Source: a virus. Taken from it: a stretch of DNA of 64,000 nucleotides. A model generated the notes under the pieces. The model had not been told where the DNA came from. It worked only from the letters and a program-made list of their open reading frames with translations, and searched no databases. Made by a program: the position numbers and the translations under genes. The first letter of the stretch is position 1; each line of letters begins with the position of its first letter. This document shows, piece after piece, positions 13,360 through 13,512 of the stretch. The stretch covers positions 32,783 through 96,782 of IMG/VR virus record IMGVR_UViG_3300037851_000831. One strand, given 5' to 3'.

Positions 13360-13512
13360 TTAATCCTCGAAGCGGTTGCCCCACTTGCTCTTGCGGCTGT
13401 AGGAACCGGTACCCCGCGACTGCTTCTCGACGCGTGTGCCGAGATTGATGCCCTTGCCCACCGGGGAGCGGTAGAACTTGCGGGAGGAGTTGCTTGCTTG
13501 CTTCGTTTTCAT
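13360..13512 (-). CDS. arfA: ArfA-like alternative ribosome rescue factor (50 aa)
   Basis: Below ORF-track cutoff. MKTKQASNSSRKFYRSPVGKGINLGTRVEKQSRGTGSYSRKSKWGNRFED; RVEK..RG.GSY.RK.K.GNR matches E. coli ArfA [21 protein letters not shown]; own promoter with ATG 7 nt after -10. Confidence 0.7.
   Translation of the reverse strand: MKTKQASNSSRKFYRSPVGKGINLGTRVEKQSRGTGSYSRKSKWGNRFED

What the first reader, a model, noticed from the sequence alone, without database searches (positions are those of the whole stretch)
13360..13512. Unannotated ArfA-like ribosome rescue factor encoded in pre-truncated form
Seen: 50-aa basic ORF with its own leaderless promoter containing TRVEKQSRGTGSYSRKSKWGNR. 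Known: E. coli ArfA has [22 protein letters not shown], recruits RF2 to non-stop ribosomes, and is normally made from an RNase III-cut non-stop mRNA under tmRNA control. Inference: this version stops just after the core motif, so it would be constitutive and independent of tmRNA, countering mRNA-cleaving defences.
Basis: partly seen in the sequence, partly recalled or inferred. Interest (0 to 1): 0.72.

Follow-up and report, generated by a model that had tools for sequence, protein, structure and literature searches.

The report
Short phage ArfA-like ribosome-rescue peptide
A freshwater phage carries a real 50-residue gene whose tail matches the part of the bacterial rescue factor ArfA that plugs the empty mRNA channel of stalled ribosomes, but it ends at a normal stop codon and lacks ArfA's release-factor-activating head, so its rescue activity is likely but untested.

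Summary
A 50-aa, net +10 ORF lies on the minus strand at 13360-13512 and contains the quoted motif. It ends in TAA.

It belongs to a family of about 100 short (37-60 aa) proteins from metagenomes and uncultivated phages, which is under purifying selection (dN/dS 0.06-0.13 in close pairs).

Homology to ArfA is real but partial. A profile-profile comparison gives 95.5% probability (E 1.5e-8), covering only E. coli ArfA residues 25-48. The window protein scores 19.8 bits against Pfam PF03889, below the 25.5 cut-off. ArfA's hydrophobic N-terminal minidomain, which opens RF2, has no detectable counterpart. A different conserved motif, RS(T/P)VGKG(L/M/I)NL, stands in its place.

The "pre-truncated" reading is supported: there is a real stop codon, no internal hairpin and no hydrophobic tail, and the protein ends at about E. 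coli position 51.

The leaderless promoter is supported by conservation in 10 related loci. It is a lineage-wide design (46 such modules in this record), not specific to this gene.

RF2 recruitment and an anti-defence role remain inference.

Two published phage genomes already carry ArfA annotations, and this scan has noted phage ArfA-like peptides on many other genomes. I rate this a new variant of a known kind, of moderate interest.

The parts
13542..13547 (-). -35-like hexamer TTGACT. It overlaps the last codons of the upstream 159-aa gene.
   Evidence: Promoter scan and sequence. TTGAC is invariant in the alignment of 11 loci.
13520..13525 (-). -10-like hexamer CATAGT, 16 nt after the -35 and 7 nt before the A of ATG 13512.
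   Evidence: The C, A and final T are invariant or nearly so in the 11-locus alignment, and the distance to the ATG is the same to within 1 nt in 10 of the 11 loci (L014 has its ATG 3 nt further on).
13360..13512 (-). Coding sequence of the 50-aa ArfA-like peptide, including the TAA stop at 13360-13362. The mRNA is predicted to be leaderless.
   Evidence: ORF list. Start supported by homologue N-termini. Purifying selection in this frame among relatives.
13516..13518 (-). Alternative in-frame ATG that would give 52 aa. It lies 1 nt after the -10 hexamer, so it is upstream of the predicted transcription start and probably unused.
13444..13470 (-). Family-specific N-terminal motif RSPVGKGIN (residues 15-23 of the 50-aa form). 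It stands where ArfA has its hydrophobic minidomain.
   Evidence: R, S and N are invariant, and V and the following L nearly so, in the 42-member alignment. This stretch is not aligned to ArfA by hhalign or Pfam.
13372..13443 (-). ArfA-homologous core, residues 24-47 (LGTRVEKQSRGTGSYSRKSKWGNR), equivalent to E. coli ArfA residues 25-48 (A-site segment and mRNA-tunnel tail).
   Evidence: hhalign probability 95.5%, E 1.5e-8. PDB phmmer alignment. Pfam positions 25-42.
13364..13368 (-). GAGGA Shine-Dalgarno sequence of the next gene, inside the last codons of the ArfA-like ORF. It lies 9 nt before ATG 13354.
   Evidence: Sequence.
13169..13354 (-). Downstream 61-aa gene of unknown function, starting 5 nt after the TAA. 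Probably co-transcribed; there is no terminator between the two.
   Evidence: No Pfam or PHROG match.
13531..14010 (-). Upstream 159-aa gene of unknown function. Homologues lie 1.5-3.4 kb from the ArfA-like gene in L003 and L009.
   Evidence: tblastn. No family match.
14433..15509 (-). Context: Rnl2-type RNA ligase, 0.9 kb upstream.
   Evidence: PF09414 E 2.7e-10 and phrog_548 E 4e-58.
5992..7131 (-). Context: T4 Rnl1-type RNA ligase. Homologues also lie near the ArfA-like gene in L002 and L007.
   Evidence: PF09511 E 4.7e-15. tblastn. Pfam on L002.

Best explanation
The ORF is a genuine phage gene for a small, basic, probably unfolded peptide that acts as a virus-borne, ArfA-type ribosome-rescue factor.

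Proposed steps:
1. Host sigma70-type RNA polymerase starts at or next to the A of ATG 13512. This is inferred from promoter geometry and conservation.
2. The leaderless message is translated to a normal TAA. This is shown by the sequence. The peptide is therefore made whenever the promoter fires, is not tagged by tmRNA, and needs no RNase III truncation.
3. Residues 24-47, homologous to ArfA 25-48, bind the A site and the vacant mRNA entry tunnel of ribosomes stalled at the 3' end of broken messages. The homology is shown; the binding is inferred.
4. The conserved N-terminal motif RS(T/P)VGKG(L/M/I)NL recruits or activates a host class-I release factor, which hydrolyses the peptidyl-tRNA. This is inferred, and it is the weakest step. 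The partner could be RF2 as for ArfA, or RF1 or RF2 as for ArfT.
5. The benefit is that ribosomes are recycled during infection, when mRNA or tRNA is cut by host nucleases or by the phage itself. This is inferred from the surrounding RNA-repair and translation genes.
For: Real gene:
- About 100 homologous short proteins exist.
- dN/dS is 0.06-0.13 in close pairs.
- All flanking genes are on the same strand.

ArfA homology of the tail:
- Pfam ArfA is the best hit for the window protein (E 5.5e-4) and for 10 of 10 aligned relatives (best 5.5e-7). Some relatives exceed the cut-off, at 26.1 and 29.4 bits.
- The six best PDB hits are all ArfA, in register.
- hhalign gives 95.5% probability, E 1.5e-8.
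- The nearest ESM Atlas clusters carry PF03889 on 10-11% of their members (score 0.93).
- Ribosome-bound ArfA structures resolve only residues up to 46-48 (PMC8012679). Every tail residue seen on the ribosome therefore has a counterpart here.

Own stop and no regulation module:
- TAA at 13360-13362, with the next gene's SD and ATG immediately after.
- No unusual RNA structure (z 0.30).
- Of the 15 relatives from metagenome, virus and genome contigs, 14 end within 6-14 residues after the G-x-G-S/A-Y motif; L017 ends 25 residues after it. Most of the 24 IMG/VR ORFs end within 8-13 residues.

Precedent for a 40-aa rescue factor with its own stop codon: ArfT (PMC6299226).

Context:
- Rnl1 and Rnl2 ligases, tRNA-Gly, an L12-CTD-like ORF, and EF-Ts-like and CCA-enzyme-like genes in the same record.
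- Rnl1 or a CCA enzyme lies near the ArfA-like gene in L002, L007 and L011.

Expression: a distant phage homologue, pelagiphage HTVC027P gp30, is reported as highly expressed early and late in infection (PMC12753301).
Against: - The window protein is below Pfam's gathering score (19.8 against 25.5 bits), and only profile positions 25-42 of 44 match. E. coli ArfA matches positions 2-43 at 89.5 bits.
- In E. coli, the N-terminal minidomain (Ile11, Ala18, Leu19, Leu24, Phe25) binds RF2 Trp319 and is coupled to RF2 opening (PMC5378476). It has no detectable counterpart here.
- Most family members have only about 17 residues before RVEK, against 27 in E. coli.
- No release-factor domain, tmRNA or other rescue component is encoded in the 96.8-kb record.
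- The host and its release factors are unknown.
- There are no expression data for this phage and no biochemical data for any phage ArfA-like protein (literature searches).
Confidence: 0.55

Rival explanations
1. The peptide keeps only ArfA's sensor tail. It binds the empty mRNA tunnel but does not recruit a release factor. It would then act as a competitor or modulator. For example, it could keep tmRNA-SmpB, ArfA or ArfB off non-stop ribosomes so that phage products are not tagged, or it could occupy vacant ribosomes to bias which messages are initiated.
For: - Only ArfA residues 25-48 are conserved, and the RF2-activating minidomain is not detectable.
- In E. coli a single change in that minidomain (A18T) abolishes release without abolishing RF2 binding (PMC5378476). 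The tail alone is therefore not sufficient for rescue.
- Typical family members are only about 38-41 aa.
Against: - The replacement N-terminal motif is itself strongly conserved (R, S and N invariant; V and L nearly so) and under purifying selection. This points to a specific partner rather than a bare plug.
- ArfT shows that 40 residues suffice for release-factor recruitment (PMC6299226).
- The neighbouring genes repair or support translation rather than block it.
Confidence: 0.22
2. The resemblance to ArfA is convergent. The protein would be a generic small basic RNA- or ribosome-binding peptide, for example an RNA chaperone or a ribosome-associated factor, that shares a Lys/Arg/Gly-rich motif with ArfA without common descent or function.
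For: - The match is short (about 22-24 residues), compositionally biased and below the Pfam cut-off for this protein.
- No NCBIfam model and no annotated PHROG family matches.
Against: - The match has the same order, the same spacing and the same distance from both termini as in ArfA. Specific non-basic positions are shared: V, E, G-x-G-S-Y, G-N-R.
- hhalign gives E 1.5e-8.
- Graded intermediates exist in phages. Examples are the RXM g10 match to profile positions 12-43 at 29.6 bits and an IMG/VR ORF in L037 with an ArfA-like N-terminal stretch followed by the same tail.
Confidence: 0.15
3. The ORF is not a gene; it is a chance open frame between real genes.
For: It is very short, has no Shine-Dalgarno sequence, and has no match in PHROGs or NCBIfam.
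Against: - The protein sequence is conserved across many contigs, with low dN/dS.
- The promoter and start geometry is conserved.
- The ORF packs tightly between same-strand genes.
Confidence: 0.02

Closest known systems
ArfA (YhdL; Pfam PF03889; PDB 5MDV, 5H5U, 5U4I, 5MGP, 7OJ0), the RF2-dependent alternative ribosome-rescue factor of beta- and gammaproteobacteria
   Same: - The R-V-E-K ... K/R-G-x-G-S-Y-x-R-K-x-K-x-G-N-R segment is shared, in the same register from the N-terminus.
- Overall size matches mature ArfA, which has 52-55 aa (PMC6299226).
- Both are basic.
   Different: - There is no detectable hydrophobic N-terminal minidomain.
- The score is below the Pfam cut-off.
- It has a real stop codon, no internal hairpin or RNase III site, and no hydrophobic C-terminal tail. 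It therefore has no tmRNA-coupled control.
- It is phage-encoded, and its start is predicted to be leaderless.
ArfT of Francisella tularensis (PMC6299226)
   Same: It is a tiny rescue factor (40 aa) with an ArfA-like basic tail. It has its own stop codon and is not regulated by truncation. This is the closest functional precedent for a 'ready-made' factor.
   Different: ArfT is known only from Francisella and shows low similarity to ArfA. It recruits RF1 or RF2. I did not test sequence relatedness to the phage family here, because no ArfT sequence or model was at hand.
Phage proteins already annotated as ArfA: Citromicrobium phage vB_CbaS-RXM g10 (OL963731; PMC8953757) and Pelagibacter phage HTVC027P gp30 (MN698241; PMC12753301)
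   Same: They are phage-borne PF03889-like small proteins. gp30 also stops 5 residues after the G-x-G-S-F motif.
   Different: - RXM g10 matches more of the ArfA profile (positions 12-43, 29.6 bits) and has a hydrophobic tail.
- gp30 scores 20.2 bits.
- Neither carries the RS(T/P)VGKG(L/M/I)NL motif.
- Neither has been tested functionally, and neither paper discusses the architecture.
BrfA (B. subtilis) and the C-terminal tails of ArfB and SmpB
   Same: They are basic tails that sense the vacant mRNA channel of non-stop ribosomes (PMC8012679, PMC6881298).
   Different: No sequence match to any of them was reported by Pfam at E up to 1. BrfA is made from a non-stop mRNA. ArfB carries its own GGQ domain, which is absent here.

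Membership tests
ArfA (PF03889) | Score at or above Pfam's gathering threshold (25.5 bits) | tested here: not met
   19.8 bits, E 5.4e-4 to 5.5e-4, for both the 50- and 52-aa forms. Relatives range from 19.2 to 29.4 bits. E. coli ArfA scores 89.5.
ArfA (PF03889) | Basic C-terminal segment with the KGKGS(Y) motif, which occupies the mRNA tunnel | tested here: met
   RVEKQSRGTGSYSRKSKWGNR aligns to E. coli residues 28-48. hhalign probability 95.5%. The window has R-G-T-G-S-Y; most relatives have K-G-K-G-S/A-Y.
ArfA (PF03889) | Hydrophobic N-terminal minidomain (Ile11, Ala18, Leu19, Leu24, Phe25) that binds the RF2 switch loop and domain 2 (PMC5378476) | tested here: not met
   Pfam and hhalign alignments start at profile position 25 / E. 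coli residue 25. The preceding stretch is a different conserved motif. This is a sequence-level test only.
ArfA (PF03889) | Synthesis from a non-stop mRNA (internal hairpin, terminator or RNase III site) plus a hydrophobic, destabilising C-terminal tail | tested here: not met
   TAA lies 3 codons after G-N-R. The next gene follows directly. No terminator was found. The fold is not different from shuffles, z 0.30.
ArfA (PF03889) | RF2-dependent peptidyl-tRNA hydrolysis on non-stop ribosomes, and synthetic lethality with ssrA | not testable with these tools
   This needs biochemistry and genetics.
Short phage ArfA-like family (unnamed; partly phrog_37108) | 37-60 aa; N-terminal RS(T/P)VGKG(L/M/I)NL; T-R-V-E-K; G-x-G-S/A-Y-x-R-K; ends within about 10 residues in an aromatic-acidic C-terminus; own stop codon | tested here: met
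   The window protein is 64-77% identical to its closest members.
ArfT | 40-aa Francisella protein with a KKGGSTNKK tail that recruits RF1 or RF2 | not tested
It is cited only as a functional analogue (PMC6299226).

The most novel reading that the evidence does not exclude
The RS(T/P)VGKG(L/M/I)NL-type peptides are a distinct, virus-specific class of factor. They kept ArfA's sensor for empty mRNA channels but replaced its RF2-activating head. They would then work through a different partner or outcome: either release factor as with ArfT, another hydrolase, or blockade of host tmRNA tagging. This would give phages a ready-made way, independent of host regulation, to control the fate of ribosomes stalled by RNA-cutting defences.
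Probability: 0.25. Interest if true: 0.75.

Novelty: new variant of a known kind. Interest (0 to 1): 0.5.

Why it matters
Many anti-phage systems, and many phage take-over strategies, cut mRNA or tRNA. This leaves ribosomes stranded on broken messages. Whether phages bring their own ribosome-rescue capacity has not been tested at the bench. ArfA-like genes have only been named in passing in two phage genome papers.

This window gives a clean, small, testable example: a 50-residue peptide with a normal stop codon and a predicted leaderless start. It sits among RNA-ligase, CCA-adding-type, EF-Ts-like and L12-like genes.

The family also poses a mechanistic question for the rescue field. How can a peptide that lacks ArfA's RF2-opening minidomain trigger release, if it does? 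The conserved replacement motif gives defined residues to mutate.

Tried and rejected
- Complex prediction of the peptide (42-row alignment) with E. coli RF2 gave 'no answer' (scores 0.14 and 0.18; the mark is 0.32). Controls were not run. This is no evidence either way.
The contigs of the closest database homologues (P0002, P0016, P0025) could not be fetched by identity. The metagenome scan was used instead.
- The look-up of sequencing runs listed no RNA holder. The one full holder is a freshwater metagenome that may be the source. Read laying was therefore not used, and there are no transcription-start or expression data.
- tblastn of the window peptide and two relatives against GenBank phages gave only Salmonella arfA at E 0.8-6, or nothing. 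Megablast of 4 kb found no related isolate.
- NCBIfam gave no match. PHROGs gave no match for the window protein. Some relatives hit phrog_37108, a family of unknown function.
- The first viral scan, using the two-sequence alignment, found nothing.
- I looked for an arfA-like internal hairpin or terminator in the window ORF and found none.
- I looked for an RF-1/GGQ domain and for tmRNA in the whole record and found none. The record is only about 47% complete.
- I did not fold the peptide alone. A 50-residue basic peptide that is disordered off the ribosome would give no usable model.

Full report
**What is there.** The window is the 3' two-thirds of a 96.8-kb IMG/VR virus record that is about 47% complete. 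The one sequencing run that holds all of this DNA is labelled a freshwater metagenome and may be its source. On the minus strand an ORF runs 13518/13512 to 13360. All neighbouring genes are on the same strand.

The closest homologues start MKTKP/MKSKP, aligned to the second Met. The first ATG (13518) lies only 1 nt after the -10-like hexamer. It has 13 Lys/Arg against 3 acidic residues and contains the quoted motif.

**Is it a gene?** Yes.
- An exhaustive profile search of 1.8 billion representatives found a small set of short relatives.
- A word-seeded profile search found 96 proteins of 37-89 aa, mostly 38-60. About half have a precomputed PF03889 hit, and several are named ArfA by JGI.
- Fifteen loci were fetched from virus, metagenome and genome collections.
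- Codon-aligned comparisons give dN/dS of 0.06-0.13 for the close pairs L010/L012/L013 and L007/L009. Comparisons with the window's nearer relatives (L002, L006, L007, L009) give 0.2-0.4; those with the more distant L010-L016 group give 0.55-0.90 at saturating divergence.

**Is it ArfA?** The tail is.
- Pfam ArfA is the top hit (E 5.5e-4, 19.8 bits) but below the 25.5-bit cut-off. It covers only profile positions 25-42 of 44.
- All 10 aligned relatives hit ArfA, best 5.5e-7. Two tested relatives exceed the cut-off, always over positions 25-43.
- E. coli ArfA scores 89.5 bits over positions 2-43.
- The six best PDB sequence hits are all ArfA chains, aligned in register (query 28-49 to residues 27-48 of the 72-aa chain).
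- A profile-profile comparison of 42 family members against enterobacterial ArfA gives 95.5% probability, E 1.5e-8. Again this covers only E. coli residues 25-48.
- The nearest ESM Atlas clusters are unnamed, with PF03889 on 10-11% of members.

In E. coli, residues 21-30 lie in the A site and the following basic tail lies in the mRNA tunnel. The N-terminal minidomain (Ile11, Ala18, Leu19, Leu24, Phe25) packs against RF2 Trp319 and domain 2, and its folding is coupled to RF2 opening. A18T kills release but not RF2 binding (PMC5378476). That head has no detectable counterpart here. The family instead has its own conserved motif, RS(T/P)VGKG(L/M/I)NL(S/G)T. R, S and N are invariant, and V and L nearly so. 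Most members have only about 17 residues before RVEK; the window's subclade has a 10-12-residue N-terminal extension.

**'Pre-truncated'.** This reading is supported.
- The ORF ends in TAA three codons after G-N-R. That is E. coli-equivalent position 51.
- Mature ArfA has 52-55 aa (PMC6299226). Only residues up to 46-48 are seen in ribosome complexes (PMC8012679).
- The next gene's GAGGA (13368-13364) and ATG (13354) follow directly.
- No terminator was found, and the RNA folds no better than shuffles (z 0.30).
- There is no hydrophobic tail.
- Of the 15 fetched relatives, 14 end 6-14 residues after the G-x-G-S/A-Y motif, often in an aromatic-acidic R-W/F-E/D(-D); L017 ends 25 residues after it.
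- Of 24 further IMG/VR contigs with ArfA-like ORFs, most end 8-13 residues after GKGSY.

The arfA-style control, in which a non-stop message is tagged by tmRNA (PMC8012679), therefore cannot apply. ArfT is a precedent for a 40-aa rescue factor with its own stop codon (PMC6299226).

**The leaderless promoter.**
- The scan finds TTGACT-16-CATAGT ending at 13520, 7 nt before A13512. There is no SD.
- In 10 further loci whose peptides are 45-70% identical, the same arrangement recurs: TTGAC(A/T), 16-17 nt, C-A-n-n-n-T, 6-7 nt, ATG (in L014 the ATG lies 10 nt after the -10). TTGAC is invariant, and the distance to the ATG is the same to within 1 nt in all but L014.
- The 'LDIYKK' N-terminal extensions on several database proteins are simply the translated -35 box.
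- By established knowledge of sigma70 promoters, the start lies about 7 nt after the -10 and a purine after a pyrimidine is preferred. This places the start at or next to the A of the ATG.
- The design is not special to this gene. The record has 59 such promoter-like sites (6.3 expected from shuffles). Of these, 46 are followed by ATG at 5-9 nt (0.54 expected). Related loci show the same density.
I reached it independently and agree.
- Three more distant relatives (L003, L011, L018) use ordinary SD starts.

**Context.** The same record encodes:
- an Rnl1-type and an Rnl2-type RNA ligase;
- tRNA-Gly;
- an ORF with a ribosomal L7/L12 C-terminal domain hit above cut-off;
- an EF-Ts-like gene;
- a CCA-adding-type nucleotidyltransferase.

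It encodes no RF-1/GGQ domain and no tmRNA. In relatives, an intein-bearing Rnl1 (L002), an Rnl1 fragment (L007) and a CCA/HD enzyme (L011) lie 1-5 kb from the ArfA-like gene. This fits a translation-maintenance role but does not prove it.

**Distribution and prior knowledge.**
- A pattern scan of 185,579 species genomes found one locus, a MAG contig that shares the phage's 159-aa gene and its promoter modules. The scan used a single peptide pattern, so its sensitivity is limited. Virus and metagenome collections gave many hits.
- The literature search found no functional study. Two phage genome papers name an ArfA gene in passing: RXM g10 (PMC8953757) and HTVC027P gp30, which is reported as highly expressed early and late (PMC12753301). 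I translated both. g10 is closer to canonical ArfA (29.6 bits, hydrophobic tail). gp30 is sub-threshold (20.2 bits) and also stops right after the motif.
- PHROGs holds only an unannotated small family, phrog_37108, which some relatives hit.
- This scan has noted phage ArfA-like peptides on many other genomes, some stop-less and some with stops.

**Verdict.** The most likely reading (0.55) is a ready-made phage rescue factor that senses empty mRNA channels with an ArfA-type tail and recruits a host release factor through a novel head. A tail-only competitor or modulator (0.22) and a convergent basic peptide (0.15) remain open. The complex prediction with E. coli RF2 gave no verdict and counts for nothing. 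I rate it a new variant of a known kind, with interest 0.5.

Noticed in passing
whole record; in the window e.g. 3128-3156, 5275-5302, 7104-7131, 7430-7457, 10816-10844, 11525-11552, 12298-12326 (all -), 27726-27753, 48976-49003, 56792-56819 (+): Promoter-plus-leaderless-ATG modules are pervasive. There are 59 TTGAC(A/T)-N16/17-(C/T)AnnnT sites in 96.8 kb (6.3 expected from shuffles). Of these, 46 have an ATG 5-9 nt downstream (0.54 expected). Related metagenome loci show the same density. This looks like a lineage-wide gene-expression design.
   Followed up: partly
window 2263-2604 (-): A 113-aa ORF hits the ribosomal protein L7/L12 C-terminal domain above Pfam's cut-off (29.3 against 25.9 bits).
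   Followed up: no
window 5992-7131 (-), 14433-15509 (-), 44450-44827 (+), 62662-63078 (+): One phage record carries two RNA ligases (Rnl1-type and Rnl2-type), an EF-Ts-like gene and a CCA-adding-type nucleotidyltransferase. Together they look like an RNA-repair and translation-support toolkit.
   Followed up: partly
L010:2853-2880, L012:4811-4838, L013:902-929, L016:~615-640: In these relatives the ArfA-like ORF ends in a 9-bp (L016: 6-bp) hairpin plus U-run, an intrinsic-terminator shape. The TGA stop codon sits at the loop/3'-arm junction. With the leaderless promoter this makes a free-standing unit of about 150 nt. The stop codon should still be inside the transcript.
   Followed up: partly
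L002:671-2230: The Rnl1-type RNA ligase of a related viral contig carries an intein splicing domain (PF14890, E 1.8e-12).
   Followed up: no
database proteins P0004, P0006, P0014, P0041; loci L006, L009: Gene callers gave several family members N-terminal extensions reading L-D-I/F-Y-K-K. These are the translated -35 box and spacer (TTG GAC ATT TAT AAA), so they are start-codon miscalls.
   Followed up: yes
L003 (JAYOZP010000083.1, binned as a Nitrospinales MAG): This 20.6-kb contig carries the ArfA-like gene, a homologue of the window's 159-aa gene, DUF932 and five promoter+ATG modules. It is probably a phage contig or prophage of this lineage rather than host chromosome.
   Followed up: partly
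L003, L006-L010, L012, L013, L015, L016, L018: Eleven of the 15 fetched relatives end in TGA, the RF2-specific stop codon. The window's ORF ends in TAA. I did not compare this with background stop-codon usage.
   Followed up: no
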